DNA of 64,000 nt, taken from Candidatus Campbellbacteria bacterium RIFOXYC2_FULL_35_25. GTDB taxonomy: Bacteria > Patescibacteriota > Minisyncoccia > Phycocordibacterales > UBA12079. Made by a program: the position numbers and the translations under genes. How positions within the stretch are numbered: position 1 is the first letter of the stretch; each line of letters starts with the position of its first letter. Positions 23,054 to 52,858 of the stretch are shown here, piece after piece. The stretch lies in contig MFAE01000005.1 of assembly GCA_001774495.1 (NCBI GenBank), positions 26,583 through 90,582 on the forward strand. The letters are read 5' to 3'. Under the pieces are notes generated by a model that was given only the letters and a program-made list of their open reading frames with translations, did no database searches and was not told the DNA's origin.

Positions 23054-23364
23054 AAAAAAGTTTTCAACATTTTTAACTTATCAAAAAATAGTGTAGTATT
23101 CGCTGATGTTCCCAGAAAATAAAAACCGTAATATAAAAAATGAATATGATATCCTCTTAATTTTTATGTTAATGGGAACAGTAATCACCGGTGTTTTTTT
23201 ATTTAAAGTGTCATCTTTTGTTGCGGTAAAAAGCTTTGATTTATTGATGTTAGCAACGGTCAGTAGTTTTTAATTTTTTTATAGAGTAAAATATAAATAT
23301 CTTTTAAAAAAATATTTTATAAATTAATTCTATAAACTATCAACTATAGACTACAAACTTAAAT

Positions 23365-25040: not shown

Positions 25041-25104
25041 CCCTCGACACAGCAAAAGAAAAAAGACGAATAAATTCGTCTTTTTTCTTTTGCTGTGTCG
25101 AGGG
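25041..25104. repeat. 64-bp perfect palindrome (30-bp arms, loop taaa) whose right arm continues into the partial tRNA-Phe 3' copy
   Basis: ccctcgacacagcaaaagaaaaaagacgaa taaa ttcgtcttttttcttttgctgtgtcgaggg. Confidence 0.85.
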
Positions 25105-25148
25105 GCGGGCTCGGACCGCCGACCCTTCGCTCTTCAGGCGAATGCTCT
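25095..25148 (-). pseudogene. partial tRNA-Phe copy (3' 54 nt: acceptor 3' strand, T arm, anticodon arm, D-stem 3' strand), att-like direct repeat of intact gene
   Basis: 54/54 identity with 25289-25342 then divergence. Confidence 0.8.
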
Positions 25149-25290
25149 CCCTCCTATTGCCTGCTCGCCCTTCGGGACTCGCTTCGGCAATTTTTTGCTT
25201 CGCAAAAACCAGATAAAAAGCTTAAACGCTTTTTATCCAACTGAGCAACGCTCAGTTGCTAGAGCATTAATAAATTTAGTTTATACAGTG

Positions 25291-25363
25291 TGTCGAGGGG
25301 CGGGCTCGGACCGCCGACCCTTCGCTCTTCAGGCGAATGCTCTACCAACTGAGCTACCTCGAC
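25291..25363 (-). tRNA. tRNA-Phe (anticodon GAA)
   Basis: GTCGAGG/CCTCGAC acceptor, D arm TAGCTCAGTTGGTAGAGC, anticodon stem TTCGC/GCGAA loop CTGAAGA, T stem GGCGG/CCGCC with unusual T-loop TCCGAGC. Confidence 0.85.
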
Positions 25364-26007: not shown

Positions 26008-26091
26008 CATGTATAAGAAATTTAAAAAACAAAAAAATCCCCTCTAGGGATTTTTTTGTTTTACTATAATCTATAAACTATCTACTACCAA

Positions 26092-26325
26092 CTATTTCAA
26101 CAATTCTTCAATTCCATTTTTATCAAAACCAAAAACAACTGTTCCATCAATAACAATAACAGGAACTCCCATTTGCCCATCTGTTAGTTTTAACAATTCT
26201 TCTCTCTTTTCTTCACTTCCTGATACATCAATTTCTTCAAACTCAACTCCTTTTTCTCTAAAAAAATCTTTGGCCATTAAACAATAAGTACAAGTTGGTG
26301 TTGAATAAATAATTACTTTTTTCAT
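26092..26325 (-). CDS. glutaredoxin-like protein (CxxC thioredoxin fold)
   Basis: 77 aa, MKKVIIYSTPTCTYCLMAK..., cis-Pro VPVIVIDG. Confidence 0.85.
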   Translation of the reverse strand: MKKVIIYSTPTCTYCLMAKDFFREKGVEFEEIDVSGSEEKREELLKLTDGQMGVPVIVIDGTVVFGFDKNGIEELLK

Positions 26326-26745: not shown

Positions 26746-26809
26746 ATAGATGAATTTTTAATTTCAAATTTCAATTCATTACTACAAACTACTCACTACT
26801 CACTACCAA

Positions 26810-27187
26810 CTAATCAAACCATCCTAAAAACTTGCTCCAAATTCCATCACCTTTACCATCATCTTCTTTTTGCTTGGTGTCTTTGGGATCAATTATCAAA
26901 ACCATTTTTTCTCCACTTTTTGCCACACCAAATTTGCTTCTTATCTCTCCCTCCTCTCCTTCTTTCGTTTTCAAAATTTCAATTTCAGACGATAGATTCT
27001 CTCCTCTTTCTTTTAACTCTTCTAATTCCCGTTGAGCAAGCTCTTTATTAATTCTTGTAATTTTTGATTCCCTGTAAGCGGTCCAAACTCCTTTTAAAAT
27101 AAAAAGGGTCACCAAGGCAAGCAAAAAAATAGTAACCTTTGAATAAATAATTCTTCTGACTACTTGTTTTTCTTCAAAATCAAACAT
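26810..27187 (-). CDS. FtsB/DivIC-like septum formation initiator
   Basis: 125 aa, N-terminal TM, coiled coil, IRSKFGVAKSGEKMVLI matching FtsB C-terminal motif. Confidence 0.6.
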   Translation of the reverse strand: MFDFEEKQVVRRIIYSKVTIFLLALVTLFILKGVWTAYRESKITRINKELAQRELEELKERGENLSSEIEILKTKEGEEGEIRSKFGVAKSGEKMVLIIDPKDTKQKEDDGKGDGIWSKFLGWFD

Positions 27188-27519: not shown

Positions 27520-27963
27520 ATGAGCACAATAAAGATTTTTTTTAACCAAGACTGTTTTCCTGCGGAACTCTGTCAACAAACCAGCGAGGTCAAGCAATTG
27601 CTCTCCAAAGCGGAAGGACTCTTGAGGGAGATCCAAATCAAAACCAACAAAATTCAGGAGGAATGCACTCACGAGCCAGGCAATTTCAAAAAAATCTGTG
27701 TTGATTCCAGCGACAACCTGGAAATCATGGAAGATCTTTTTTTAAGAAAAAATGGTTGGGTCTGGGTTGGAACCCAGTGCCCGAAATGCAAAAAAATCTC
27801 CTCGAGACCATCTTATGACCCCAAGGTTGAGTGTGAAAAATGTGGCGGAAAAATGAAGGATCGATGCCTTGGTTTGCGGGCAAACGTCCTAGCTCATGTC
27901 TTCCAGTGCGAAGTCTGCGACCATGAATTCGTCGAGGATTTAATGAAAAAGAGACTTCTTTAA
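27520..27963 (+). CDS. hypothetical Cys-rich protein with two zinc-ribbon knuckle pairs (CPKC...CEKC; C...CEVC)
   Basis: 147 aa, SD GGAGGCGAAAGATG, elevated GC; operon with next ORF. Confidence 0.5.
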   Translation: MSTIKIFFNQDCFPAELCQQTSEVKQLLSKAEGLLREIQIKTNKIQEECTHEPGNFKKICVDSSDNLEIMEDLFLRKNGWVWVGTQCPKCKKISSRPSYDPKVECEKCGGKMKDRCLGLRANVLAHVFQCEVCDHEFVEDLMKKRLL

Positions 27964-28254: not shown

Positions 28255-28293
28255 TAAAAAGGTTTAGCAACAGTTGTTGCTAAACCTTTTTTT
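28255..28293. terminator. hairpin ggtttagcaacagttgttgctaaacc + T-run
   Basis: between convergent 27999..28223 and leuS. Confidence 0.7.
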
Positions 28294-28326
28294 ACTTACT
28301 ACTTGATACTTGCTACTTATTACTTA

Positions 28327-30777
28327 CTACTCATTACTCTCTACCACAATGTTTAAAATTCTATTTTTGACGTAAATGATCTTTTTGGGTTCTTTTCCTT
28401 CAAGCCATTTTTTTATCAATTCGCTTGCAAGAGCTTTCTTGCTAACATCCTCTTCCTCAGTTCCCTCTTCTATTTCTATAGTCTCTCTAACTTTTCCATT
28501 TACCTGAACGGCTATTTTGTGGATACTGTCTTTAGACAAGCTCTCATCAAATTTTGGCCAACTTTCATCTTGAATCAAACTTTCATTTCCCAACTGGTGC
28601 CAAAGCTCTTGTGTAATATGCGGAGCAAAAGGAGAAAGTATTGTTAAAAATGTTTGATAATCTTCTTTTGAGATACTTGATTTTTTTACTGTGTTTATAA
28701 ATTTCATCATATCAGAAACAGCAGTATTATAAGCCAACTCATCTATACCTTTCGTCATTCTTTTAATTGTCTTATGCAATTCCCTAACAACATCTTCAGA
28801 ACTTTTTTCTTTTAGTTCATCTTTGGTAAACCAAACTTTTTCCAAAAATCTATAAACTCCCACTATATTATCTTCATTCCACATTACCTCGTCTTCCAAT
28901 GGTGCAGCAAAAAGCATATAAGTCCTTACGGAATCAGCCCCAAAACTTTTAACCATATCATCTGGATTAACCACATTACCCTTTGATTTGCTCATTTTCT
29001 TGCCCTGCGCGTCCAAAACCATCCCTTGGTGCCTTAGCTTCAAAAACGGCTCATCAAAGTCTAGAAGGCCTATTTTGTTCATCGCTTTTGTGAAAAAACG
29101 AGCAAATAATAAGTGCATATAAGTATGTTCGGCCCCACCAATATACAAATCAACCGGCAACCATTTCTTACGAATTTCTGAACAAAACTCAGAATCATTT
29201 AGAGCATCTGGATATCTTAAAAAGTACCAAGAAGAATCAACAAAAGTGTCCATGGTGTCATATTCGGGAGTCCAACCTTTTCCAAAAATTTTTTCAGTTC
29301 TTTCTTTAAATTCTTTTGAAGCCCCTAATGGAGAAACTCCCTTTGGTTTAAAATCAACATCGATGGGAAGAATCCAAGGAAGATGCTCTTCAGGAACCAA
29401 GGTCGCCTTACCCTCGGGAGAATAAACGATCGGAATCGGACAACCCCAATATCTCTGTCGAGAAATTGACCAATCTCTTAAACGATAATTGGTTGTCATT
29501 TCCCCACCAACAAATTCTGTAATTTTCTTCTTAGCTTCTTCGGAGTTCATTCCATTGAATTGTCCTGATTCCATAAGTAACCCAAAACCTATCGTTGCAA
29601 AACCAGACTCACGAGCACTTTTTATTTTTAATTCTGCTAATCCTGGAATAATTTCGTCAACAGATTTAACCTCAGCTATAACTGGCTTAATTTCAATATC
29701 TTTTTGTAATGCAAACTGAAGGTCTCTATCATCATGAGCCGGCACCGCCATAATCGCACCAGTTCCATAGTTAACCAACACATAATCAGCAATGAAAACT
29801 GGTATTTCTTCGCTGTTAGCTGGATTAATAGCCGAAATTCCCTCAAGCTTCACCCCTGTCTTCTCTTTACCCTCTATTCTCTCCATTTCTGTCTTATTTT
29901 GAGCTTTAATCCCGTACTCCTCAACCTCGTCCCAGTTTGTAATTTGGTCCTTCAATTCGGAAACAAGCGAATGTTCTGGGGCAAGCACCATATAAGTAGC
30001 ACCAAACAAAGTGTCAGGACGAGTAGTAAATACCTCTATTTCGTTCGCTGTTAGCTGTGATCTGTGAGCTGTCAGCTTAAACTTAATCTTTGCTCCTTCA
30101 CTCTTCCCTATCCAATTTCTCTGATTTTTTTTAGTATGTTCTGGCCAATCAACTTTGTCTAAGTCATTAATTAAATCATCGGCGAAATCTGTAATCTTGA
30201 AAAACCACCCTGGTATTTTTTTCTGTTCAATTTGGGTTCCGCATCTTTCACACTCACCATTAAGAACTTGTTCGTTCGCAATTACAGTCTGGCAAGAAGA
30301 ACACCAATTTGCTTTTTGTGTACTTTGATAAACTAAATCATTTTTATAAAATTGTTGAAAAATCCATTGAGTCCATTTGTAGTATTTTGGATCAGAGGTT
30401 ACTGCCTGTTCATCAAAATCATAATTAAGACCCAACATCTTCATTTGTTTAATATAATTGCTGATATTTTTTTCAGTAGTTTGGGCGGGGTGAACTCCTG
30501 TTTTTATTGCAAAGTTTTCAGCCGGCAAACCAAAGGCGTCAAACCCTTGAGGGTGCAAAACATTAAATCCCTGCATCTTTTTGAAACGGTAATATACATC
30601 ACTCGCGGTATAACTTTCAGTATGTCCCATATGAAGACCATCACCGGACGGATAAGGAAACATATCAAGCATGTAAAACTTATTTTTAGTATCGTCTTTG
30701 TCTATTTTAGAAACCTTATTTTCCTCCCAAATCTTTTGCCATTTCCCCTCAATATCATTGTGATTGTATTTTTCCAT
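28327..30777 (-). CDS. leuS: leucyl-tRNA synthetase
   Basis: 816 aa, HMGH and KMSKS motifs, editing (CP1) domain. Confidence 0.95.
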   Translation of the reverse strand: MEKYNHNDIEGKWQKIWEENKVSKIDKDDTKNKFYMLDMFPYPSGDGLHMGHTESYTASDVYYRFKKMQGFNVLHPQGFDAFGLPAENFAIKTGVHPAQTTEKNISNYIKQMKMLGLNYDFDEQAVTSDPKYYKWTQWIFQQFYKNDLVYQSTQKANWCSSCQTVIANEQVLNGECERCGTQIEQKKIPGWFFKITDFADDLINDLDKVDWPEHTKKNQRNWIGKSEGAKIKFKLTAHRSQLTANEIEVFTTRPDTLFGATYMVLAPEHSLVSELKDQITNWDEVEEYGIKAQNKTEMERIEGKEKTGVKLEGISAINPANSEEIPVFIADYVLVNYGTGAIMAVPAHDDRDLQFALQKDIEIKPVIAEVKSVDEIIPGLAELKIKSARESGFATIGFGLLMESGQFNGMNSEEAKKKITEFVGGEMTTNYRLRDWSISRQRYWGCPIPIVYSPEGKATLVPEEHLPWILPIDVDFKPKGVSPLGASKEFKERTEKIFGKGWTPEYDTMDTFVDSSWYFLRYPDALNDSEFCSEIRKKWLPVDLYIGGAEHTYMHLLFARFFTKAMNKIGLLDFDEPFLKLRHQGMVLDAQGKKMSKSKGNVVNPDDMVKSFGADSVRTYMLFAAPLEDEVMWNEDNIVGVYRFLEKVWFTKDELKEKSSEDVVRELHKTIKRMTKGIDELAYNTAVSDMMKFINTVKKSSISKEDYQTFLTILSPFAPHITQELWHQLGNESLIQDESWPKFDESLSKDSIHKIAVQVNGKVRETIEIEEGTEEEDVSKKALASELIKKWLEGKEPKKIIYVKNRILNIVVESNE

Positions 30778-30812: not shown

Positions 30813-30852
30813 ACTATACTAAAATTTACGCGACCGCGTAAATTTTAGTATA
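30813..30852. repeat. 40-bp sequence, copy 1 (38-bp perfect palindrome with 18-bp arms; extended to 23-bp arms 30810-30857); identical to 31529-31568
   Basis: actatactaaaatttacgcgaccgcgtaaattttagtata; 75 bp downstream of stop of 30928..31482. Confidence 0.9.
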
Positions 30853-30927
30853 GTTTGTTTTTTCCTTCATTTTATTACTTCTCTTTATTATTTCCCTTTA
30901 TTATTTATTTTTCTTTATTATAAATAA

Positions 30928-31482
30928 CTACTTAGTTAAACCAAAAACTTCTTTTAACCACTCTTCGTTTTCTATTCTATTTACTTCCATATACAAAACA
31001 TCTTCATCAGCAAAAAAATTTGTTTTAAGTAGAAAAATAAGCTCTTCACACTCATAAGGAAGAACCCATACACTATTTTGTAATTTAATAAACCCTAATC
31101 TATCTAAATTATGACGAAGTAATTCTCGAAGTCTCTTTTTTTTCTCTGGAATATCAAAAATAATAACTCTCCATTTTTTATCCCAATTCTTTGGCTTTTC
31201 TATTTCTATTTCTTCTAATTCATATTGGGAAATCATTTCCCTACCCTTTTTTGTAAGTTCTATAAATTCAACACTGCCTTTTTTTACTTTTTTTATTAAA
31301 CCTTTCTTTAATAGTGTTTTTACAGAATTATTCATATAATATTTTTCTTTCGACCAACCCTTCTTTTTTGGTAAAAACATTTTTAAAGATTGCAAAGCAT
31401 TTGGAGCTAAAACAGCCATACCAACCAAGCCGGTAATCGCTATTGTGGATAAAATTATTTTTTGATAATTTATATTTTTCAT
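30928..31482 (-). CDS. membrane-anchored wHTH + Cas2/VapD/PaaX_C-like (ferredoxin-fold) domain protein; orphan, no cas1 or CRISPR array
   Basis: N-terminal TM; LKKGLIKKVKKGSVEFIELTKKGREM wHTH-like; WRVIIFDIPEKKKRLRELLRHNLDRLGFIKLQNSVWVLP resembles Cas2 core (RVLVFFDLP...GF.MLQ.SV). Confidence 0.6.
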   Translation of the reverse strand: MKNINYQKIILSTIAITGLVGMAVLAPNALQSLKMFLPKKKGWSKEKYYMNNSVKTLLKKGLIKKVKKGSVEFIELTKKGREMISQYELEEIEIEKPKNWDKKWRVIIFDIPEKKKRLRELLRHNLDRLGFIKLQNSVWVLPYECEELIFLLKTNFFADEDVLYMEVNRIENEEWLKEVFGLTK

Positions 31483-31528: not shown

Positions 31529-31568
31529 ACTATACTAAAATTTACGCGACCGCGTAAATTTTAGTATA
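31529..31568. promoter_or_regulatory. 40-bp sequence, copy 2 (identical palindrome), 46 bp upstream of start codon of 30928..31482: candidate operator
   Basis: perfect identity with 30813-30852; position in promoter region; AT-rich promoter between it and ATG. Confidence 0.5.
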
Positions 31569-31610
31569 TCTTGATAAGTAAGATCGAGATTGTTAAGCAT
31601 CAAAAAAACA

Positions 31611-31633: not shown

Positions 31634-31694
31634 TTTACTTTCTACTTATTACTTAATACTCGCTACTAGAAATTTAAATAAAAATTTTCAATTT

Positions 31695-32249: not shown

Positions 32250-32343
32250 ATTATTTATATTATTGAGATTAATAAAAATTCTAATAATAAACTAGAAATT
32301 GAATAGAGAATCATGAATTAAGAATTCTGAATCATGATTCTTT

Positions 32344-32410
32344 ATTCGTGATTCGTGATTCGTGATTCGTGATTCGTGATTCGTGATTCGTGATTCGTGA
32401 TTCGTGATTC
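32344..32410. repeat. heptanucleotide tandem repeat (ATTCGTG) x 9.5, perfect
   Basis: attcgtg units 32344-32406 plus attc; intergenic between SPFH stop (32432) and start of 31695..32249. Confidence 0.95.
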
Positions 32411-32431: not shown

Positions 32432-33208
32432 CTATTTTTTACTAACAAAATTAGAATATCCTTTTATAGCTTCCAAAACTTCTGTAGGAATCATCCAGAT
32501 GGTTGTATTTGATTGATCAGAGCTTAAATCGTTAATTGCTTGCAATGTTCTCAAATGCATAGCCCCAGGGGTAGCGGAAAGTTTTGCAGCCGCTAGAGCT
32601 AGGTTGTCAGCAGCAATTCGATCACCGTCAGCTTTAATAATAACAGCTCTCTTTTCTCTTTCAGCTTCAGCTTCTTTTGAAATAGTTCTCTTCAAGTCTT
32701 CTGGGATAATAACATCCTTTAGTTCAACCGATTCGATATCGATTCCCCAAGGATCGGTGAGGGAGTCAACTCTTTCTTTAATCTGCAAAGCTATTTCAGC
32801 TCTTTTCTGCAACAAATCATCCAAACTTCTTTCTCCCACAAAGTTTCTCATCGTTGTTTGAGCAACCTGTGAAGTAGCATAGTAGTAATCTTCTACTTCA
32901 AGAACAGCCTTAGAAGCCTCAACAATTTTATAATAAACAACGGCATTGATCTTTACCGGGATATTATCCTTTGTAATCACTTCTTGATCGGGAACATCTA
33001 CTGCTTTTGTTCTTATATCGACCTTTGTCATAGATTGAAAAATTGGAATAACAAGTCTCCATCCTGGTTGTTTTATTCCTGTAAATTTACCAAGGGTAAA
33101 CATAACCCCTCTTTGATACTGATTCACCTGCCTCAATATCAATACCAAAATTACAATAATAACTGGTATGTATGTTAACAGGTTTGGACCTCCTAAAAAT
33201 GTATTCAT
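32432..33208 (-). CDS. SPFH/band-7 (stomatin/prohibitin-like) domain protein
   Basis: 258 aa, N-terminal TM, SPFH core, coiled-coil tail; G-less CTATAGACTATAAACTAAA leader before ATG. Confidence 0.85.
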   Translation of the reverse strand: MNTFLGGPNLLTYIPVIIVILVLILRQVNQYQRGVMFTLGKFTGIKQPGWRLVIPIFQSMTKVDIRTKAVDVPDQEVITKDNIPVKINAVVYYKIVEASKAVLEVEDYYYATSQVAQTTMRNFVGERSLDDLLQKRAEIALQIKERVDSLTDPWGIDIESVELKDVIIPEDLKRTISKEAEAEREKRAVIIKADGDRIAADNLALAAAKLSATPGAMHLRTLQAINDLSSDQSNTTIWMIPTEVLEAIKGYSNFVSKK

Positions 33209-33372
33209 GGTTAATTTAGTTTATAGTCTATAGTTTTTAGTCTATAGAAAAATATAGTATTAATAATATAATTATAACACAGTCTAGTTTTTAGTTGATA
33301 GTTGATAGTTTTTAGGAAAAAGAAAAAGCCCGTCCCGGAAAAAATTTCATGAGTCTCTCAATTCCTTGCTTT

Positions 33373-33438
33373 TTTTAAAAGAAATTTTTCTGACAAAAAT
33401 GACGACCGTCATTTTTATCAGAAAAATTTCTTTTAAAA
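33373..33438. repeat. 66-bp near-perfect AT-rich palindrome (32-bp arms, 1 mismatch, centre gacg ac cgtc)
   Basis: tttaaaagaaatttttctgacaaaaatgacg / cgtcatttttatcagaaaaatttcttttaaaa. Confidence 0.85.
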
Positions 33439-33485
33439 AACCATGGTGATCTATCCTAACCAATTTAAATATTTTACGAGAAAAA

Positions 33486-33953
33486 AGCCCGTCCCGGAAA
33501 CCGGGGCGGGCTACAAAACAACAAAAAGATAGCTCGGGATCGCTGGGTGGCGGTTTGAAAATTTCATTGACCGTCGCCTTCAGGGCGGTTTTTTACGTCG
33601 CAGGCGTCTCTTTTTGGTGTTTTTCTATTTGGAAACCTCCCCATATAAACAGAGAAGCTCCACCCATAAGAGCAAAACAAATATAGAAAAAAAGCAGGGC
33701 AAAATGATGAAAGAAAAAATCATTTAACCAATTTCGATAAAAATCATTTAACAGAAGAATATTAAGATCTGAAAAAAACAATACTGATACCATCAAGAAA
33801 AAACCAATGGCCACAGAGCAATAAGCAATAGACTTCATAGCACTCCTCCTTTCTTTTTTATACTTTTTTATGAAAGACAAAAAATTCTAACCATAGACTA
33901 ACAACATAGACGAGGGTTGTCAATCATTTTGGCTTCTTTTACAATTATTTAGA
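33486..33953. repeat. 468-bp direct repeat, copy A (apparently 100% identical to 34461-34928); contains gene 33593..33880 and GC hairpin AGCCCGTCCCGGAAACCGGGGCGGGCT
   Basis: base-by-base comparison of the two stretches; identical 95-aa translations. Confidence 0.9.
33593..33880 (-). CDS. hypothetical small membrane protein (2-3 TM), copy A
   Basis: 95 aa; identical to 34568..34855. Confidence 0.5.
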   Translation of the reverse strand: MSFIKKYKKERRSAMKSIAYCSVAIGFFLMVSVLFFSDLNILLLNDFYRNWLNDFFFHHFALLFFYICFALMGGASLFIWGGFQIEKHQKETPAT

Positions 33954-34085
33954 AATTAAGAATTTAAAATTAATTTGATTTTAAAATTGGATGCGGAACG
34001 AAGGTTTGAGGTAGTTATTTGGAAAAAGAAAAAGCCCGTCCCGGATAACCGGAACGGGCTGCAAAACAACATTTGGTGTTTTTGT

Positions 34086-34292
34086 TTATAAAAAAAGTTT
34101 TTCACCAAAAGCGTTAATCCCTTTGCCGTCAGGGTAATGAACCCTTTTACATACCGGGCACGCCGGCATATCCTCAAATTGAGGATTTGAACATCACCCC
34201 CCTCCAGAGACCATCATACTTTTTGAAGGAGAATCTTGATCTATTGCCTCCCCACAGTCAGTACATGGAAATTGAAAAGTATCTTGTCCCAC
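34086..34292 (-). pseudogene. small zinc-ribbon ORF (CTDCG...CPVCK) with strong SD (AAGGAGG-6nt-GTG) interrupted by in-frame TGA at 34194-34196 next to a G6 tract
   Basis: translation MGQDTFQFPCTDCGEAIDQDSPSKSMMVSGGG*CSNPQFEDMPACPVCKRVHYPDGKGINAFGEKLFL*; upstream TTGACA promoter-like. Confidence 0.35.
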
Positions 34293-34460
34293 TCTTACCT
34301 CCTTATAATGGCTCTGGTTTTTTGTACCGGGTTAAATAATCTATCGTTAGATTAACAGATCAGATTATATTGTCAACAAAAAATTAATTTGATTTTAAAA
34401 TTGGATGCAGAACGAGGAGTTGAGGTAGTTTTTAGTTGATAGTTTTTAGGAAAAAGAAAA

Positions 34461-34928
34461 AGCCCGTCCCGGAAACCGGGGCGGGCTACAAAACAACAAA
34501 AAGATAGCTCGGGATCGCTGGGTGGCGGTTTGAAAATTTCATTGACCGTCGCCTTCAGGGCGGTTTTTTACGTCGCAGGCGTCTCTTTTTGGTGTTTTTC
34601 TATTTGGAAACCTCCCCATATAAACAGAGAAGCTCCACCCATAAGAGCAAAACAAATATAGAAAAAAAGCAGGGCAAAATGATGAAAGAAAAAATCATTT
34701 AACCAATTTCGATAAAAATCATTTAACAGAAGAATATTAAGATCTGAAAAAAACAATACTGATACCATCAAGAAAAAACCAATGGCCACAGAGCAATAAG
34801 CAATAGACTTCATAGCACTCCTCCTTTCTTTTTTATACTTTTTTATGAAAGACAAAAAATTCTAACCATAGACTAACAACATAGACGAGGGTTGTCAATC
34901 ATTTTGGCTTCTTTTACAATTATTTAGG
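34461..34928. repeat. 468-bp direct repeat, copy B
   Basis: identical to 33486-33953. Confidence 0.9.
34568..34855 (-). CDS. hypothetical small membrane protein, copy B (identical to 33593..33880)
   Basis: 95 aa identical protein. Confidence 0.5.
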   Translation of the reverse strand: MSFIKKYKKERRSAMKSIAYCSVAIGFFLMVSVLFFSDLNILLLNDFYRNWLNDFFFHHFALLFFYICFALMGGASLFIWGGFQIEKHQKETPAT

Positions 34929-35083
34929 CCGAAATACCCAGCCATAGCAATCAGCGGGAAACATGGGTACAGAACTTTTTTCAGTTTCCTAAACCGTGTC
35001 GGCCCAGGAGGATGAGTCAGCCCCCAAATTGATCCCACAAAACCGACAAGAAAAACAATAACGCATGCTGATTTAATATCCAT
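34895..35083 (-). CDS. hypothetical small protein (weak)
   Basis: 62-aa ORF whose 3' end overlaps the duplicated segment. Confidence 0.25.
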   Translation of the reverse strand: MDIKSACVIVFLVGFVGSIWGLTHPPGPTRFRKLKKVLYPCFPLIAMAGYFGLNNCKRSQND

Positions 35084-35293
35084 ACCTTCTCCTTTTTCGC
35101 CACTATGTTAAAAAGCTTCCCAAAATTCTTGTTCTATAATAACGTCTATTTTACTAATTGTCAATACTTGTATTAAGTTAATTTCAAAATTAAATGCAGA
35201 ACGAGGAGTAAGAGTAAAATTTTGTGAGACGTATTTTCAATACGGTGAACAAAATTTTGCGAATTACGACAAAGCTCTGCGCCAATTTTGGAA

Positions 35294-36388
35294 TTAAATC
35301 CTAAATTCGATGACATCCCCATCCTTCACAACATATTCCTTCCCTTCTATCCTCTTCAAACCCTTTTCTCGCGCGACGGCGTGAGAACCACAAGAAATCA
35401 AATCCTGCCAATTTATTACATCAGCTTTGATAAACTTGTCTTTAAAATCTGTGTGAATAGCTGTGCCTGCCATAGGAGCTGCCCAACCACGCTTTATTGT
35501 CCAAGCTCTAGATTCATCTTCCCCTGTTGTGAAATATGTAATCAAATCTAACAATTCATATCCTGTCCTGATTAAACCATCAATATCATCAGCAGAACCA
35601 CCGAGCTGTTGTTTAAATTCTTCTTTTTCATCAGGCGCAAAGTCTTGTAATTCATGTTCAATCTGAGCATCAACTTTTACATACTTAGCCCCAGTTTCTT
35701 CAAAAAACTTTATCAGTTGGTCATATCTTTCGTCTTCAATTTCATCCAAATTTTGCCCACCCGACTTTTTGTTCAAAATATAAAAAATTGGTTTCATTGT
35801 AAGCAAGTGAAGAGCTTTAACAATTTTTATTTCTTCTTCGTCCATCTCCACAGTTGAAGCAAACTTTCCATCGTCTAAAACTTTTTCTATTTTTTGTAAA
35901 ACTCCTTTTTCAATAATTGCATTTTTATCTTGCCTTCTTACATCCTTTTCAACATTATCCAATCTCTTGGTAACAGTTTGAAAGTCTGCCATTATTAATT
36001 CAAGATTAATAACTTCCACATCATCCATTGGATCAATTTTCCCTTCCACGTGAATAATTTTGTCGTCTTCAAAAATTCTCACCAATTCGGCGATAGCATC
36101 TACTTCTCTAATATTGGCCAAGAATTTATTTCCCAAACCTTCTCCAGAGTGAGCTCCGGCAACCAGACCAGCGATATCAACAAACTCAATTGCCGCTGGA
36201 ACCATTTTTTTTGATTTTGAAAATTCGTTTAATTCTTCTAACCTTTGGTCAGGAACAGAAACAACCCCGACTGATGGGTCGATAGTACAAAATGGGTAGT
36301 TTTCTGCTTCGACAGACTTTTTGGTCAAAGCGTTAAACAAAGTTGATTTTCCTACGTTGGGCAAGCCCACAATACCTATCGAAAGCAT
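35294..36388 (-). CDS. ychF: ribosome-binding ATPase YchF (Obg-family GTPase)
   Basis: 364 aa, G1 GLPNVGKST, coiled-coil insert, C-terminal TGS domain. Confidence 0.9.
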   Translation of the reverse strand: MLSIGIVGLPNVGKSTLFNALTKKSVEAENYPFCTIDPSVGVVSVPDQRLEELNEFSKSKKMVPAAIEFVDIAGLVAGAHSGEGLGNKFLANIREVDAIAELVRIFEDDKIIHVEGKIDPMDDVEVINLELIMADFQTVTKRLDNVEKDVRRQDKNAIIEKGVLQKIEKVLDDGKFASTVEMDEEEIKIVKALHLLTMKPIFYILNKKSGGQNLDEIEDERYDQLIKFFEETGAKYVKVDAQIEHELQDFAPDEKEEFKQQLGGSADDIDGLIRTGYELLDLITYFTTGEDESRAWTIKRGWAAPMAGTAIHTDFKDKFIKADVINWQDLISCGSHAVAREKGLKRIEGKEYVVKDGDVIEFRI

Positions 36389-36607
36389 AAGGTTATTAAG
36401 AGATTAATGATTAATTTGTAAATTAGTAAAAAAGGGGAGGTAAAATTTTTAATTTATAATTTTTAATTTATAAACAATTTTTAATGATAAAATTTTTAAA
36501 ATTTAAAAGTTGGGATTATGATACCTTGCAATGGAAATCGCAAAGCCAATTCCCCTCCTTAACCTCGTTATAATAGCCTTTTTTAAGCGAAAACTCAATA
36601 AATAAGA

Positions 36608-37400: not shown

Positions 37401-37841
37401 TTAATGATTGCCGCAATTTGGGCATTTACCATCGGCGGATTGCATATGTTCGATAGAACCGTGAACTTCGCAATCAGGATTCTTGGTGGGCTGGTCTGCT
37501 GAAGTCCAGAATCCGTTTTCAGGATTAAAGCTTGCAACGAAACATTCCACTTTCGCTTTCGGATAAAGTCTTTTGATTCCCAAACCAACATTCAGTGCAA
37601 GCCGTTGCCGAACTCCTTGTGTTCTTTCTGGTTTTTCGAAGAGACCACTAATTTCGATGATGATTTCTTCACCCAGACCATAAGACATAAGGTCAGGAAC
37701 AAACAAGCAGGTCATGTCGTTTTCATCCTTCAAACCAAGTTCGTAAATACCAACAACAGCGGATACAATCGATTGATGAACCTTGTTCAGCATCTCCTCT
37801 GTCTGATTAGCAGGAAGACACCATACTTTGATTATGGGCAT
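37401..37841 (-). CDS. hypothetical protein: N-terminus MPIIKV... reminiscent of tautomerase-superfamily Pro1 start, C-terminal zinc ribbon (C..H..CPNCGNH); GC-rich islet
   Basis: 146 aa ORF, elevated GC. Confidence 0.4.
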   Translation of the reverse strand: MPIIKVWCLPANQTEEMLNKVHQSIVSAVVGIYELGLKDENDMTCLFVPDLMSYGLGEEIIIEISGLFEKPERTQGVRQRLALNVGLGIKRLYPKAKVECFVASFNPENGFWTSADQPTKNPDCEVHGSIEHMQSADGKCPNCGNH

Positions 37842-40252: not shown

Positions 40253-40342
40253 AGAAAAAAAAGCAAGCTTCTTGTTGATAACTCAAATTTAATTTACAGA
40301 GTCTTAGTCTCTGTAAATTAAATTTGAGTTATCAACAAGAAG
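40253..40342 (-). terminator. exceptionally long perfect hairpin (34-bp arms, 7-nt loop) followed on minus strand by U9: probable murJ terminator
   Basis: cttcttgttgataactcaaatttaatttacagag tcttagt ctctgtaaattaaatttgagttatcaacaagaag; A-run 40253-40262 on plus. Confidence 0.65.
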
Positions 40343-40456
40343 TAATAAGTAGTAAGTAGTGAGTATTAAGTTTCTGGATTGCTTCAGGCTTCGCCTTCGC
40401 AAAGACAAAAATCGTTTGCTATAAGCTATCGGCTATTAGCTATTAGCTTTCTAATA

Positions 40457-45726: not shown

Positions 45727-45845
45727 AGAAAATTTTTACGAAAATTTTAGTATTAAGTAATAAGTAGTAAGTATTAAGTATAAATGAAAAAGTTAAAAGT
45801 TGAAAGTTTATAATTTCTAGCGAGGACGAAAGGGAGGTATAGTCC

Positions 45846-46289: not shown

Positions 46290-46594
46290 GGTTCTGAATT
46301 GCTTCGAAATTACTCCCCGAGGCCTCACCTCTCCCGTCGTTTCGCTTCGCTCCACTTCTCCTCGAGGACTTAAAATTTTTTAGGAAAAGTTTTAAGCAAC
46401 GACGGGCCTCCGTCCGTAATTTCTCGCAAAGACGACGAAAGGCAGAGCCTTTCGTCGTCTTTTAAAAATTAATTTATTAAAAATTTTTAAACCCCCACCC
46501 CTTTCTTTTCCAAAACAAAGGTGTGGGGGTTTAAAAATTAAAAATTAAAAATTTCAGATGTTTTTTCTACTCACTACTCACTACCAACTACTCA

Positions 46595-47527
46595 CTATTC
46601 CTGTGCAACTTTTTCTATACTAGCAGAAACTAATTTTCCCACGTCTTTGAAACGGCCTTCTCGGGAAGAACCTAAAACAGAAACAATGATAGGATGACCT
46701 ATGCCAATATCAAAAGCGATAACTAAATTTCCTCCAGCCAAATCTGTAAAGCCGGTTTTAGAAGCAATTATTCCGGGGATGGCTTCCGCGTATTGATTGG
46801 TATTGTAAACAGTATGAGTAAAATCTTTTGATTTTATTTCCAAACTCGAATATTTTGTAGCCTCAAGAATCTGCGGTTTCTCTTTTATGATCTGCCCCAT
46901 TAGCATAGCCACATCTTTTGCCGAACCATAGGCCCCACCAACATCCTGACTTACATCTAACCCAGATTCGTTTAAAAAATAAGTTTGGATTAATCCTAAA
47001 TTTTGAGCTTTTTGGTTCATTTCTTTAATAAACATTTCTTCCTGTGTTTGTCCCTCTCCTGTATTAATAGAACCTATGATAGAGGCAAGGGCGTGCGCTC
47101 CATCATTAGATGAAGATACTAAAGTAAAGTCCAAAACATCAGCGAGTCTCCATTTTTCACCCATCAAGAAACCACTATCCCCTTCTTCGTTGATGTCCTG
47201 ACTGTCTATGGTAACAATGATTCCTTCTGGAACTAATTCTGAAACAACTAGTGCTGTCATTAACTTTGTTAAAGATGCCAAAGGTAACTGAGCTTCCCCA
47301 TTCATTGAATAAATTATTTTATTTTCGTAAGTGTCCCAAACGAAAGCTGATTTTGCTTCCAAAACCAAGTCTTCAAATGGATCTATTTTTTCTTCCGCAA
47401 TATTGACCTCTGATTCAATTATTATTTCTTCTTTTTTACTTAAAAAATAAAAAAGAAAAACGCCCACCAAAACGACAGTGGTTGTTATTAGAACAATAAT
47501 TTTATTTTTATTTTTTGCGAAATTCAC
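46595..47527 (-). CDS. D-alanyl-D-alanine carboxypeptidase (S11, PBP5-like)
   Basis: 310 aa, SLTK, SSN, KTGFT motifs, N-terminal TM. Confidence 0.8.
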   Translation of the reverse strand: MNFAKNKNKIIVLITTTVVLVGVFLFYFLSKKEEIIIESEVNIAEEKIDPFEDLVLEAKSAFVWDTYENKIIYSMNGEAQLPLASLTKLMTALVVSELVPEGIIVTIDSQDINEEGDSGFLMGEKWRLADVLDFTLVSSSNDGAHALASIIGSINTGEGQTQEEMFIKEMNQKAQNLGLIQTYFLNESGLDVSQDVGGAYGSAKDVAMLMGQIIKEKPQILEATKYSSLEIKSKDFTHTVYNTNQYAEAIPGIIASKTGFTDLAGGNLVIAFDIGIGHPIIVSVLGSSREGRFKDVGKLVSASIEKVAQE

Positions 47528-47557: not shown

Positions 47558-48109
47558 TTAAAAGCTTTCAAAGCCTTTTTGTTGTGCTTGGATTTGATTA
47601 TCTTCAATTTCTTTTTGAGTTTGTTCATATTCAGGTAATTCTTTCAGTTCAGAAATCCCCAGATAGGACAATAATTCAAATGTTGGTAAGTAAAAAAAAC
47701 TTCTTTGATTATTTTCATCGGTTTTTCTTTCAACCAATCCTCTAACCAAAAGATTTCTCAAAATAGTTGCCGAGTTAACCCCTCTAATATAATCAATCTC
47801 TGATTTCCTCACAGGCCCGCGATACAGAACAATAGAGAGAGTTTCCAAACTGGCTTTACCTAAATCTTTTGATAATTCTTCCTTCTTTAATGACTCAATA
47901 ATTTCGTGGGCCTCAGGACCAGTGGCAAGCATTACCTTGTCATCCTTAAAAATTAATCTTATACCCCGGTCCTCTAACTTTATTTTTAATTCTTCTAAAC
48001 TAGTTTTAATATCATCTTCTTTTACATTCAAAATGCTTGCCAATTTTTTATATGACATGGCCTCCCCTTTAAAAAATAATATCGCTTCAATTTGTTTATC
48101 TAGATTCAT
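47558..48109 (-). CDS. scpB: segregation and condensation protein B
   Basis: 183 aa, tandem wHTH ScpB motifs. Confidence 0.85.
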   Translation of the reverse strand: MNLDKQIEAILFFKGEAMSYKKLASILNVKEDDIKTSLEELKIKLEDRGIRLIFKDDKVMLATGPEAHEIIESLKKEELSKDLGKASLETLSIVLYRGPVRKSEIDYIRGVNSATILRNLLVRGLVERKTDENNQRSFFYLPTFELLSYLGISELKELPEYEQTQKEIEDNQIQAQQKGFESF

Positions 48110-48217
48110 AATATTTTAGTCGATAGTTTATAGACTATAGTTTATAGTATAAAATTATATTATTAAAGTATAAATTATCTAAATTCTATAGACTATCAAC
48201 TAAAAACTATAGACTGT

Positions 48218-51586: not shown

Positions 51587-52858
51587 CTATCTCACCAAAA
51601 GTTCGTCAGCTTTTTCCGGGTGAGCCATTACCTCTTCAACCACAAATTCCATTCTTGTGGCCCAACGAGAACCTTTTACCAAAATGAGGTCTTTTTCTTT
51701 TATTAAATTTTGTAAAAAGGCGCCGGCTTTCTGAGAATCATCAAATTCAAAAATGTTCTTCTTGTTCATCCCTGACTTATGAGCTCCTTCCGCAATATCT
51801 TTGGCACGCAAACCAACAACTAAAAGAATGTCACAGATCCCCGCTACAATTTTCCCGGCCTTTTTATGTTCTTCTGTAGCGTATTCTCCTAATTCCATCA
51901 TATCTCCCAAGACAGCTATTTTTCTTTCAGCCTCTACCTCTCCTAACATTTTCAACGCCCATTCTACAGCTAAAGGAGAAGAATTGTACGAATCATCTAT
52001 AATAATAGAATTTTTTATACCTTCGATTAATTTCATTCTTCCTGGTTGAGCTAAATGATCTTCGGATAAAGCCTGGGACATAGAAACAAGATTAAGGCCC
52101 TGCGAGATTCCCACAGCGATTGCAGCTAGTGCTGGATAAATATGTTGAACCCCAATAACCCCTGTCATATTTACAGGAACACTAGTTCCCTTGCTGTTCG
52201 CCTTAAAGACCATCCCAGTAACTTTCCCTTCTTTATAAGAAAATTGATTATTTGAACCCCAAATATCAGCCTCATCATTTTCTAATCCATACGTAATAGT
52301 TTTCTGATCATTTTCTTCTTTTATTTTTAAAACATCCTTATCGTCATAATTAAGAATGATATAACCATCTTCTTTTAAATATCTAACTAATTTCTTTTTT
52401 TCTTGGATGACGGCATCTGGGGAATCAAAGTATTCAACATGAACCGGAATTTCTGCAAAACGAGTAATAACAGCGATGTCTGGCTTTAGCCATTTTGCTA
52501 TATCCTCAATATCATTGGGATGGTCTGCCCCCACTTCTAACACAAGCCATTTTGGATAATGGTTTTTAAAAAGAATTAGTGCCAATCCTTCAAAAATATT
52601 TTTTAACCAAATAAAAATGTTGTTTCCTCCGTTGGGACAACCCAAAATACTCAGAGGAACACCAATTTCACTATTAAAACTTTTCTCACTTTTTCTAACA
52701 AAGAAAGCTGAACTTAGAACAGTAAAAATAGCATCTTTGGCAGTAGTTTTCCCTACACTACCTGTTATCGCCACAATTTTAGGTTTATATTTTTTCAAAA
52801 CAATTTTCGCCTCCAGTTGGATTATAAAAACTATTATTTTTTTAAAGGTTGATTTCAT
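51587..52858 (-). CDS. murF: UDP-MurNAc-tripeptide--D-Ala-D-Ala ligase MurF (Mur ligase family)
   Basis: 423 aa, ITGSVGKTT P-loop, Mur ligase middle/C domains; dcw context. Confidence 0.8.
   Translation of the reverse strand: MKSTFKKIIVFIIQLEAKIVLKKYKPKIVAITGSVGKTTAKDAIFTVLSSAFFVRKSEKSFNSEIGVPLSILGCPNGGNNIFIWLKNIFEGLALILFKNHYPKWLVLEVGADHPNDIEDIAKWLKPDIAVITRFAEIPVHVEYFDSPDAVIQEKKKLVRYLKEDGYIILNYDDKDVLKIKEENDQKTITYGLENDEADIWGSNNQFSYKEGKVTGMVFKANSKGTSVPVNMTGVIGVQHIYPALAAIAVGISQGLNLVSMSQALSEDHLAQPGRMKLIEGIKNSIIIDDSYNSSPLAVEWALKMLGEVEAERKIAVLGDMMELGEYATEEHKKAGKIVAGICDILLVVGLRAKDIAEGAHKSGMNKKNIFEFDDSQKAGAFLQNLIKEKDLILVKGSRWATRMEFVVEEVMAHPEKADELLVR

What the first reader, a model, noticed from the sequence alone, without database searches (positions are those of the whole stretch)
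33280..35220. Mosaic repeat region with a 468-bp perfect duplication carrying two identical small membrane-protein genes
Segments 33486-33953 and 34461-34928 are identical, offset by 975 bp. Each contains a 95-aa 2-3 TM protein gene (33593..33880 and 34568..34855) plus the GC hairpin AGCCCGTCCCGGAAACCGGGGCGGGCT. Variants of that hairpin, preceded by GGAAAAAGAAAA, occur four times (about 33326, 33486, 34033 and 34461). A second motif, AATTAATTTGATTTTAAAATTGGATGCrGAACGArG, occurs three times (about 33967, 34381 and 35176). Perfect identity implies a very recent duplication or ongoing gene conversion. The unit structure (motif, hairpin, gene) looks like a cassette being amplified.
Basis: seen in the sequence. 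Interest (0 to 1): 0.6.

Follow-up and report, generated by a model that had tools for sequence, protein, structure and literature searches.

The report
Recently duplicated orphan small-gene cassette
A 471-bp stretch carrying a small orphan membrane-protein gene is present twice, letter for letter, in a strain-variable gap between two housekeeping genes of an uncultured groundwater bacterium; the second copy is a very recent recombination product, which is a real but fairly ordinary kind of genome change.

Summary
The duplication is real: 33482-33952 equals 34457-34927 exactly (471 bp, offset 975). All relevant genes lie on the minus strand. The GC hairpins are rho-independent terminators read backwards. 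The second motif (M) sits upstream of each cassette's promoter.

The window is from Candidatus Campbellbacteria RIFOXYC2_FULL_35_25 (a CPR bacterium). Between ychF and an SPFH gene lie four self-contained units, X, Y2, Z and Y1, each with a promoter-like site (Y's -10 is weak), a strong Shine-Dalgarno site, a small ORF and a terminator. The terminator-spacer-M module that separates them resembles the native 3' flank of ychF in a related genome.

At least six other assemblies of the same population match the window over 18.7 kb apart from one SNP, but carry only the last ~145 bp of copy 2. So the second full copy is a recent ectopic gene conversion. Its left junction is a 10-nt microhomology and its right junction is ordinary homology. 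A close strain lacks Z and has two tandem Y cassettes.

Y (81 aa, not 95) is a two-helix membrane protein with one distant homologue in 1.8 billion representatives. X and Z are orphans. No recombinase, phage, plasmid or Rfam match was found. The proteins' function is unknown, and a type I toxin-like role is untested speculation.

The parts
33482..33952 (-). Repeat copy 1 (R): Y promoter region, Y1 gene, 3' UTR and terminator T
   Evidence: Exactly identical to 34457-34927.
34457..34927 (-). Repeat copy 2 (R). It begins inside the last codons of gene X and carries Y2. In at least six other assemblies of the same population, 34600-34917 is replaced by TTT.
33593..33838 (-). Gene Y1: 81 aa, two predicted transmembrane helices, ATG preceded by AAAGGAGGAG (NCBI OGD67456.1/OGD67457.1)
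   Evidence: One distant homologue, P0005 (43-47 % identity, E 1e-7).
34568..34813 (-). Gene Y2, identical to Y1. No terminator separates it from X, so it is probably co-transcribed from the X promoter.
34895..35083 (-). Gene X: 62 aa here (OGD67458.1), 56 aa (...GLNNF) in all other assemblies; SD AAAAGGAGAAGG. Only the N-terminal hydrophobic helix passes the hydropathy cut-off. The C-terminal part aligns with Y's second helix.
   Evidence: Its C-terminus plus the in-frame remnant KHQKETPVT aligns with the C-terminus of Y.
35136..35164 (-). Promoter-like site of X: TTGACA-17-TATTAT (11 of 12 matches)
34086..34292 (-). Gene Z: zinc-ribbon-like ORF (CTDC...CPVC) with SD AAGGAGGT and a GTG start, interrupted by an in-frame TGA at 34194-34196. 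Probably a pseudogene. Absent from the second strain.
   Evidence: Weak PHROG hits span both CxxC motifs.
33486..33512 (-). Terminator T of Y1 (stem-loop followed by TTTTTT)
   Evidence: -20.9 kcal/mol in the minus sense.
34461..34487 (-). Terminator T of Y2 (stem-loop followed by TTTTTCTTTTT)
34033..34060 (-). Terminator T' of Z (12-bp stem, loop TTAT, T-run)
33315..33338 (-). Half terminator: 3' arm plus T-run only, followed by the same spacer as after T of copy 2
   Evidence: (family D3, 96 %).
33967..34000 (-). Motif M1, upstream of the Y1 cassette
34381..34414 (-). Motif M2, immediately upstream of the -35 TTGACA of Z
35176..35210 (-). Motif M3: a diverged copy at the native position just downstream of ychF and upstream of the X promoter
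33371..33440 (.). AT-rich palindrome with 34-nt arms, between T of Y1 and the half terminator. Probably a second terminator or insulator ahead of the SPFH promoter.
   Evidence: (I1). The second strain carries a change that makes the stem perfect.
33569..33590 (+). Hairpin abutting the Y stop codon. It folds much better, and has its U-run, on the plus strand. Second copy at 34544-34565.
35294..36388 (-). ychF (left border of the variable gap)
32432..33208 (-). SPFH/Band 7 gene (right border of the variable gap)

Best explanation
The region is a small, strain-variable accessory islet in the otherwise conserved ychF | SPFH gap of a Campbellbacteria (CPR) chromosome.

**Layout.** Read on the minus strand it holds four self-contained transcription units, X, Y2, Z and Y1. 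Each has a sigma-70-like -35 TTGACA (Y's -10 is weak), a strong Shine-Dalgarno site, a short ORF and a rho-independent terminator. The units are separated by reiterated copies of one non-coding module: terminator hairpin, T-run, heptamer-repeat spacer and motif M. That module derives from the native 3' flank of ychF. All three cassette types also share a 3' segment that starts at AAAAACACCAAA.

**How the duplication arose.** These shared flanks act as portable homology, so the locus is reshuffled by ectopic gene conversion and unequal recombination. The window's perfect 471-bp repeat is the newest such event. A partial Y copy downstream of X (the last ~145 bp, with one SNP) was overwritten from the intact Y1 cassette. 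The right junction lay in that homology and the left junction at a 10-nt microhomology (CTAAATAATT).

**Consequences.** The event doubled the Y gene, placed Y2 behind the X promoter, and changed the C-terminus of X from ...NNF to ...NNCKRSQND.

**Shown versus inferred.**
- Shown: the sequences, junctions, strain polymorphism and terminator folds.
- Inferred: the direction of the event, promoter activity, and the recombination pathway.
- Unknown: the biochemical role of X and Y. Y is a two-pass membrane protein. X has one clear hydrophobic helix and a C-terminal part resembling Y's second helix. My best guess is dispensable, strain-specific membrane-active accessory proteins.
For: - **The repeat is exact.** 471 bp.
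- **Strand, SD sites, promoters and terminators.**
- **Source and annotation.**
- **Same population without the second full copy.** L001-L005 and L016 match the window apart from one SNP. Window 34600-34917 is replaced by TTT, X ends ...GLNNF*, and the SNP is at 34575.
- **The 62-aa X occurs only in the NCBI MAG**.
- **The L-type junction is not a clean deletion of the window form,** whereas CTAAATAATT is shared by the X 3' end and the sequence upstream of Y1.
- **Second strain.** No Z cassette and two tandem full Y cassettes. Its differences from the window pile up in the hairpins: 6/111 in the 3' UTR plus T, against 1/246 in the Y CDS and 0/199 in SPFH.
- **Older copies.** T-s1-M2 and T'-s2-M1 are 82 % identical.
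- **The X C-terminus and its in-frame remnant align with the Y C-terminus**.
- **The module resembles the ychF 3' flank** of Campbellbacteria GW2011_OD1_34_28.
- **The Y homologue on L097 is followed by the same spacer and -10 region** as window 33318-33270.
- **The gap after ychF varies among relatives.** It is 138-219 bp where empty, and about 0.6-1.4 kb where it holds a pilin pair, HicAB, RelBE-like genes or other orphans.
- **No recombinase or transposase among the 30 ORFs of the window scanned against Pfam,** nor in the L001 annotation.
- **No copy of M or T elsewhere**.
Against: - The full second copy is seen in a single assembly and I could not inspect reads.
- The direction of the event (conversion of the partial copy rather than a complex deletion of a full copy) is inferred from junction sequences only.
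- The Y promoter has a poor -10 (TAGTCT), and promoter-like sites are barely enriched over shuffles (20 found against 14.8 expected).
- Homology of M to the L020 ychF flank rests on one short alignment.
- Nothing here tests what X, Y or Z do.
- Conservation of the non-coding module could reflect a function (sRNA, operator) rather than passive homology.
Confidence: 0.7

Rival explanations
1. Type I toxin-antitoxin-like cassettes. X and Y would be small membrane-damaging peptides. The conserved non-coding module would encode a plus-strand antisense sRNA that starts in or near M, runs through the T hairpin, and ends at the hairpin plus U-run abutting the Y stop codon, overlapping the 3' UTR of the toxin mRNA (as in B. 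subtilis txpA/RatA or bsrG/SR4; those examples are from memory). Tandem reiteration and strain presence/absence would then be the usual behaviour of such loci.
For: - Small hydrophobic ORFs with polar C-termini are repeated in one intergenic region, with similarity extending beyond the CDS and strain-level presence/absence. These are the search criteria of Fozo et al. 2010 (PMC2887945).
- The R3 region folds markedly better on the plus strand: z -4.6 against -2.5, and extended hairpin -26.8 against -13.3 kcal/mol, followed by U6.
- The window's T hairpin is perfect only in the plus sense.
- Relatives carry type II TA modules (HicAB, RelBE-like) in the same slot.
Against: - Y is 81 aa with two helices, above the <60-70 aa typical of the class.
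- No convincing plus-strand promoter is conserved in all three M copies (and inspection).
- 9 of the 24 pairs of the plus-strand hairpin are G-U, and the second strain's SNP (33547) breaks a G-C pair without compensation.
- T' and the second strain's T fold better in the minus sense.
- The Z cassette has the module but encodes no membrane peptide.
- No Rfam or toxin-family match.
Confidence: 0.12
2. Assembly artefact. The true genome has only the partial second copy, and the MAG assembler wrongly threaded the full Y cassette behind X.
For: The window form is found in one assembly only, while at least six others give the partial-copy form. Repeats of this size break short-read assemblies, and several contigs end inside the repeat (L003, L004, L006).
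Against: - The window-specific junction joins X-specific sequence to cassette-specific sequence through only 10 shared bases, so a de Bruijn or overlap misjoin is implausible.
- It also converts the SNP at 34575.
- A related strain independently shows two full Y cassettes on a k=141 contig whose k-mers span cassette-specific sequence and the copy-specific SNP.
Confidence: 0.1
3. A site-specific cassette system (integron-like or serial integration at an att site). T-s-M would be a recombination site duplicated at each integration of a circular cassette, catalysed by a recombinase encoded elsewhere.
For: - Conserved flanks surround unrelated orphan ORFs (X/Y against Z).
- Z plus one module is present or absent as a precise 414-bp unit.
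- The module equals the native target, the ychF 3' flank.
- A 562-bp contig period could also come from a circle.
Against: - No integrase, transposase or relaxase among the 30 window ORFs scanned against Pfam, nor in the L001 annotation.
- By eye I saw no attC-type core sites (GTTRRRY/RYYYAAC) at the boundaries and no imperfect long hairpin; no pattern search was run.
- Cassettes carry their own promoters.
- Boundaries differ from event to event (CTAAATAATT, AAAACTA, AAAAACACC), as expected for homology or microhomology rather than one crossover point.
- Module copies are 82-100 % identical.
- M and T occur nowhere else.
Confidence: 0.05

Closest known systems
Ectopic gene conversion and segmental duplication between dispersed or tandem repeats in bacterial chromosomes, including homology-facilitated illegitimate recombination (one homologous anchor plus a microhomology join; term as used in PMC6382021, mechanism from general knowledge)
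   Same: A perfectly homogenised tract sits inside older, more diverged repeats. One junction is in ~145 bp of homology and the other at a 10-nt microhomology. The state is polymorphic between otherwise identical genomes.
   Different: No experimental evidence exists for the pathway or for DNA uptake in this organism. The event could equally be intrachromosomal template switching.
Tandemly repeated type I toxin-antitoxin loci (ldr-rdl 'long direct repeats', ibs-sib, zorO-orzO; Fozo et al. 2010, PMC2887945)
   Same: Short hydrophobic ORFs with polar C-termini are repeated in one intergenic region. Identity extends into the flanks. The intergenic region is expanded in some strains and empty in relatives.
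   Different: Y is 81 aa with two helices. No antisense RNA has been shown. There is no sequence similarity to any known toxin family. One cassette (Z) encodes a broken zinc-ribbon protein instead.
Chromosomal integron cassette arrays (e.g. Vibrio VCR arrays; from general knowledge)
   Same: Arrays of small, mostly orphan ORFs separated by a reiterated ~120-bp element, with cassette duplication and loss between strains.
   Different: No IntI, no attC architecture, cassettes with their own promoters and terminators, only 3-4 units, and a repeat derived from a gene's terminator region.
Rho-independent terminators
   Same: GC-rich 11-12-bp stems with 3-4-nt loops, followed by T5-6, placed 15-80 nt after stop codons in the gene's orientation.
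   Different: Three near-identical copies plus a half copy occur within 1.2 kb. The variants look like mosaics of each other's arms.

Membership tests
Rho-independent (intrinsic) terminator | GC-rich stem-loop immediately followed by a U-run, downstream of a stop codon on the coding strand | tested here: met
   T' is flagged by the scan (12 pairs, 9 GC, tail TTTTTCTTTTT). T folds at -20.9 and T' at -24.6 kcal/mol in the minus sense, each followed by a T-run. The window's T has one C-A mismatch in that sense.
Recent segmental duplication / ectopic gene conversion | Identity covers coding and non-coding sequence alike, and is far higher than that of neighbouring older repeats | tested here: met
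   471/471 identical, including promoter, CDS, UTR and terminator. The adjacent T-s-M modules are only 82 % identical.
Recent segmental duplication / ectopic gene conversion | Polymorphic among otherwise identical genomes | tested here: met
   L001 differs from the window over 18.7 kb only at this junction and one SNP. At least six assemblies carry the partial copy.
Recent segmental duplication / ectopic gene conversion | Spanning reads and two-fold coverage in the source sample | not testable with these tools
   No read data are available.
Type I toxin-antitoxin locus (criteria of PMC2887945) | Toxin under about 60-70 aa with a transmembrane region and a polar or aromatic C-terminus | tested here: inconclusive
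   X (56 aa) fits. Y (81 aa, two helices) exceeds the size range. Both have polar C-termini.
Type I toxin-antitoxin locus (criteria of PMC2887945) | Tandem repetition within one intergenic region, with similarity beyond the ORF | tested here: met
Type I toxin-antitoxin locus (criteria of PMC2887945) | A cis- or trans-encoded antisense sRNA that pairs with the toxin mRNA | tested here: inconclusive
   A plus-strand fold with a terminator-like end exists. No conserved promoter was found, the fold is G-U rich, and it is not conserved in the second strain.
Type I toxin-antitoxin locus (criteria of PMC2887945) | Toxicity on overexpression | not testable with these tools
   This needs an experiment.
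Integron gene-cassette array | Adjacent IntI tyrosine recombinase with attI and Pc | tested here: not met
   No integrase domain in the 30 window ORFs scanned against Pfam, nor in the L001 annotation.
Integron gene-cassette array | attC sites: imperfect inverted repeats bounded by RYYYAAC ... GTTRRRY | tested here: inconclusive
   Checked by eye only, with no pattern search. I saw no such cores at the boundaries. The hairpin is a short, near-perfect GC stem with a T-run.
MITE / IS-derived repeat | Terminal inverted repeats, target-site duplication and many dispersed genomic copies | tested here: not met
   M and T occur only in this locus within the window. They are absent from relatives and from the genome, metagenome and viral collections, apart from this same locus.
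NfeD partner of SPFH proteins | Membrane protein with an NfeD/OB-fold domain in an operon with the SPFH gene | tested here: not met
   No Pfam hit for Y. Y has its own terminator and SPFH its own promoter.
Selenoprotein (for Z, in-frame TGA) | SECIS element after the UGA and Sec machinery in the genome | tested here: inconclusive
   A 7-bp hairpin lies 7 nt after the TGA but there is no Rfam match. TGA ends 3 of 40 long ORFs. The sel genes could not be searched.

The most novel reading that the evidence does not exclude
The ychF terminator region may act as a recombinase-free 'landing pad'. SD-led orphan genes would be captured one after another by anchor-plus-microhomology recombination (possibly during natural DNA uptake), each time reiterating the terminator-M module. 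The result would be an integron-like cassette array without an integrase. Alternatively, the reiterated module is itself functional, encoding a convergent antisense sRNA that controls small membrane toxins. That would be a first type I TA-like family in CPR bacteria.
Probability: 0.15. Interest if true: 0.6.

Novelty: new member of a known kind. Interest (0 to 1): 0.3.

Why it matters
The locus is a clean natural example of how a reduced CPR genome with no mobile-element enzymes nearby still gains, duplicates and loses small genes. Reiterated terminator/promoter-flank modules supply the homology. The newest event can be dated to within one population, because the surrounding 18.7 kb differs by a single SNP.

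It also defines a tiny real protein family: Y plus one 44 %-identical homologue. And it flags the ychF-downstream gap as an accessory-gene hotspot in Campbellbacteria, which holds TA modules, pilins or orphans in relatives.

None of this overturns current understanding. Its value is as a curated case, and as a caution for MAG annotation: two identical 'hypothetical proteins', an extended X, and an unannotated broken Z.

Tried and rejected
- **Plus-strand reading of the hairpins and motif as 'motif, hairpin, gene'.** Rejected. SD sites, T-runs and ORFs all fit the minus strand.
- **The 95-aa ORF.** Rejected in favour of the 81-aa ATG start.
- **Family searches.** Pfam, PHROGs, PADLOC, NCBIfam and PDB sequence searches for X, Y and Z gave nothing usable.
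- **Homologue searches.** The k-mer-indexed search found only self hits or nothing. Exhaustive HMMER for Y gave one distant homologue.
- **Structure.** The AlphaFold model of Y is a low-confidence helical hairpin (pLDDT 68), so I ran no fold search.
- **Rfam.** At relaxed thresholds it returned only spurious miRNA-type hits on the AT-rich palindrome.
- **Phage or plasmid origin.** No blastn match and no viral contig carrying T.
- **Genome-wide dispersed repeat or MITE.** No other copies.
- **Integron.** No integrase found, and by eye the boundaries lack attC-type cores.
- **Simple deletion of a full copy to give the common form.** Rejected. The junction ...TAAATAATT-TTT-AAAAACACC cannot be produced by deleting between any repeats in the window form.
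- **The tandem contig L012 as a de Bruijn graph cycle.** Considered. Its k=141 k-mers would have to span cassette-specific sequence plus the copy-specific SNP 77 nt away, so it probably reflects a real full upstream Y.
- **TGA recoding in Z (code 25 or code 4).** Unlikely. LeuRS and the other long ORFs are intact under table 11, and TGA ends 3 of 40 long ORFs.
Full report
**1. The observation**

The two segments 33482-33952 and 34457-34927 are identical over 471 bp at an offset of 975 bp. This is the only long repeat in the 64-kb window.

The hairpin-associated string CCGGGACGGGCTTTTTCTTTTTCC occurs exactly three times, and the 27-mer core of the second motif exactly twice. Both have zero matches expected from shuffles. 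A third, diverged copy of the second motif lies near 35176-35210 (63 % over 54 nt). It shares the exact 12-mer CTCGTTCTGCAT with the second copy.

**2. Anatomy (minus strand)**

Every feature makes sense only when read on the minus strand. Going from ychF (36388..35294) to the SPFH/Band 7 gene (33208..32432; Pfam), the order is:

- **Motif M3.**
- **X promoter.** A near-consensus TTGACA-17-TATTAT (35164..35136).
- **Gene X** (35083..34895, 62 aa, SD AAAAGGAGAAGG).
- **Repeat copy 2.** It starts inside the last codons of X. It carries gene Y2 (34813..34568, 81 aa from an ATG 4 nt after AAAGGAGGAG), a small hairpin at the stop codon, and the GC hairpin T (34487..34461) followed by TTTTTCTTTTT.
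- **Spacer s1 and motif M2.** The spacer is rich in heptamer repeats.
- **Z promoter and gene Z.** A TTGACA box, then gene Z (34292..34086, SD AAGGAGGT, GTG start). Z has CTDC...CPVC zinc-ribbon-like motifs and an in-frame TGA at 34196..34194.
- **Hairpin T'** (34060..34033) plus a T-run.
- **Spacer s2 and motif M1.**
- **Repeat copy 1.** Y1 (33838..33593) and T (33512..33486).
- **A 139-bp segment** containing a palindrome with 34-nt arms (33440..33371).
- **A half terminator.** The 3' arm plus T-run (33338..33315), followed by a spacer 96 % identical to s1 (family D3).
- **The SPFH promoter region and leader.**

Two conclusions follow. The 'second motif' is the sequence that precedes each cassette's promoter.

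The 95-aa ORF is an upstream TTG extension. NCBI and JGI aa.

**3. Where it comes from and what the population shows**

Y matches 'hypothetical protein A2442_03055/03060' of Candidatus Campbellbacteria bacterium RIFOXYC2_FULL_35_25. The 62-aa X matches A2442_03065.

*The common form (L-type).*
- Exact-protein look-ups returned the same locus from several other Rifle groundwater assemblies.
- L001 matches the window over 18.7 kb, apart from the copy-2 junction and one SNP.
- In L001-L005 and L016, window 34600-34917 (318 nt) is replaced by TTT.
- X then ends ...GLNNF* (56 aa).
- Only the last ~145 bp of the repeat follow (AAAAACACC... through T), with a C-to-T difference at 34575. L015 also encodes the 56-aa X but ends about 42 nt beyond it.
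- After the X stop codon, that remnant reads KHQKETPVT* in frame. With the X C-terminus it aligns to the C-terminus of Y. So the 3' end of the X cassette is an old Y-derived piece.

*The window form.*
- The 62-aa X that marks the window form is on record only for the NCBI MAG.
- The left end of copy 2 coincides with a 10-nt string (CTAAATAATT) shared by the X 3' end and the sequence upstream of Y1.
- The common form cannot be derived from the window form by a clean deletion.
- The most economical history is that the window form is derived. The partial copy was overwritten from Y1, with one junction in the ~145-bp homology and the other at the microhomology.
- A 10-nt overlap is far too short for an assembler misjoin, so I consider an artefact unlikely. 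It is not excluded, because I could not inspect reads.

*A second, very close strain* (Y V17I; L009-L013).
- It lacks the Z cassette altogether. Its sequence runs Y 3' end, T'-type hairpin, s1, M, and then directly a full Y cassette.
- A k=141 contig (L012) reads M, full Y, hairpin, s1, M, Y, which is two full Y cassettes in tandem with a 562-bp period. Cassette-specific sequence and the copy-specific SNP lie within one k-mer.
- Differences between this strain and the window are concentrated in the hairpins and other non-coding parts: 6/111 and 8/273, against 1/246 in the Y CDS and 0/199 in SPFH.
- The hairpin variants look like mosaics of each other's arms, as expected from repeated conversion among them.

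**4. Origin of the reiterated module and nature of the slot**

*Synteny and the gap.*
- The order ychF, (gap), SPFH, 184-aa membrane protein, (PaaX_M-like gene), LeuRS is conserved in related Campbellbacteria/Paceibacteria genomes.
- The gap after ychF is variable. It is 138-219 bp and empty in three genomes.
- In three others it holds a pilin-like gene plus an 84-90-aa membrane protein.
- In single genomes it holds a HicAB-like pair, a RelBE-like pair, or other orphans. Those family names are my reading of the translated sequences; they were not scanned.

*The module resembles the native ychF flank.*
- In the complete genome of Campbellbacteria GW2011_OD1_34_28 (L020), ychF is followed by a GC hairpin, then TTTTTCTTTTGTTTCC, then TCGAACTTCATCCAATTTTTGATTAAATCA.
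- This aligns with the window's hairpin, T-run and motif M.
- It is itself followed by a promoter-like site and an SD-led orphan gene.
- The terminator-spacer-M module is therefore a reiterated copy of the native 3' flank of ychF, not a mobile repeat. It is absent elsewhere in the window, in 80 relatives' loci, and in the genome, metagenome and viral collections, apart from this same locus.

*The downstream side is also ancestral.* The only distant homologue of Y (P0005, 72 aa, E 1e-7) sits on a 990-bp contig (L097). There it is followed by a terminator, TTTTTCCTAAAAACTATCCACTAAA, a different palindrome, and AAAACTAAAAACTGCTATGTGTTATAAT. That is the same spacer and -10 region as in window 33318..33270. 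So the order Y, terminator, spacer, promoter is ancestral.

*No mobile-element enzymes.* None of the 30 ORFs of the window scanned against Pfam, and no gene in the L001 annotation, is a recombinase or transposase. There is no phage or plasmid similarity.

**5. The proteins**

- **Y.** It has two hydrophobic helices (about residues 3-29 and 42-68) and a polar C-terminus. The AlphaFold model is a low-confidence helical hairpin. Residues conserved with P0005 cluster in the inter-helix segment (FFSD.N.LLL...Y.NW.ND.F..H) and in L.IW.G, which argues for a real, selected protein.
- **X.** It has one clear hydrophobic helix at the N-terminus, followed by a basic segment. Its C-terminal part aligns with Y's second helix and tail. 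It has no homologues outside this population.
- **Z.** It has no homologues. Read through its TGA, it gives only weak zinc-ribbon-type PHROG hits that span both CxxC motifs. I regard it as a recently broken gene.
- **Family libraries.** None gives a function.
- **Translation signals.** X, Y and Z all have strong SD sequences, whereas most housekeeping genes of the window have none.

**6. Mechanism and rivals**

*Best-supported account.* The islet is an array of independently expressed small genes separated by reiterated copies of the ychF terminator/M module and a common 3' segment. These shared flanks drive ectopic conversion and unequal exchange. That produces, within one species-level population, a partial or full second Y, loss or gain of Z, and tandem Y. 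The window's perfect repeat is the latest such event. It doubles Y, fuses Y2 to the X transcription unit (no terminator lies between them), and alters the X C-terminus.

*Type I toxin-antitoxin reading.*
- It is attractive because several published search criteria fit: short hydrophobic ORFs with polar tails, tandem repetition with flank similarity, and strain presence/absence (PMC2887945).
- The 3' UTR region also folds much better on the plus strand and ends in a U-run at the Y stop codon.
- Against it: Y is too long. No plus-strand promoter is conserved. The fold is G-U rich. A strain-2 SNP breaks it.
- I give it about 12 %.

*Other rivals.* An integron-like or att-site system fails on the integrase test, and by eye its boundaries are not attC-like and differ from event to event. 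An assembly artefact is unlikely for the reason given in section 3.

**7. Verdict**

The kind of event is well known. The instance is new, involves orphan genes of unknown function, and sits in a CPR genome. Interest is modest (0.3).

Noticed in passing
window, e.g. 9306-9338, 15481-15505, 23330-23363, 26063-26095, 26781-26812, 28293-28339, 31635-31660, 32324-32410, 33217-33247, 33292-33310, 36444-36473, 40340-40371, 45749-45781, 46567-46597, 48123-48215, 52865-52937: Short tandem arrays of period 7 are common (units such as AACTATA, ACTACTA, TACTTAC, AAGTAGT, and ATTCGTG x12.6). 25 of 30 lie in the 29 % of the window that is non-coding. Many sit within 100 nt upstream of start codons, several forming the whole 5' leader (SPFH, 23365, 47558-48109, 51587-52858). 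The spacers of the finding are made of them. I have no explanation. They could be promoter-upstream or leader elements specific to this lineage.
   Followed up: partly
window, upstream regions of about 36 genes: Most housekeeping genes (LeuRS, ychF, SPFH, DnaB, LepA, MurJ and others) have AT-rich leaders with no Shine-Dalgarno motif. The orphan or accessory genes (X, Y, Z, 14581-15315, 27520-27963, 37401-37841) and the Y homologue on L097 have strong GGAGG-type sites. This suggests two classes of translation initiation signal in one genome.
   Followed up: partly
window 34086-34292 (-): The unannotated zinc-ribbon-like ORF Z has an in-frame TGA (34196..34194). A perfect 7-bp hairpin (ATCCTCA ATT TGAGGAT) follows 7 nt downstream. 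It is probably a pseudogene, but recoding was not excluded.
   Followed up: partly
L017-L028, L074 (downstream of ychF): The gap immediately after ychF is an accessory-gene hotspot across related genomes. It is empty (138-219 bp) in three. In others it holds a pilin-like gene plus an 84-90-aa membrane protein, a HicAB-like pair, a RelBE-like pair, or orphans. The family names are my reading of the sequences, not a scan.
   Followed up: partly
window 30813-30857 and 31529-31573: Two 96 %-identical 45-nt palindromes (ACTATACTAAAATTTACGCGACCGCGTAAATTTTAGTATAG) flank the membrane-anchored PaaX_M/Cas2-like-domain gene (30928..31482). They are probably bidirectional terminators, but the duplication around a single gene is notable.
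   Followed up: no
window 25095-25169 and 25290-25363; 5869-5927 and 6057-6115: Two tRNA-Phe(GAA) genes lie 195 bp apart and are 98 % identical (only the second passes the Rfam gathering score). Separately, a 59-nt stretch running from upstream into the start of tRNA-Glu(CTC) is duplicated. These are further small local duplications in the same genome.
   Followed up: no
window 33343-33481; L097 855-910: Different long AT-rich palindromes are inserted at different points of the same Y-to-next-gene spacer in two species. In the window the insert is bracketed by a 16-nt direct repeat (CCGGGACGGGCTTTTT). A strain-2 change makes the window's stem perfect, consistent with a hairpin that functions on the minus strand.
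   Followed up: partly
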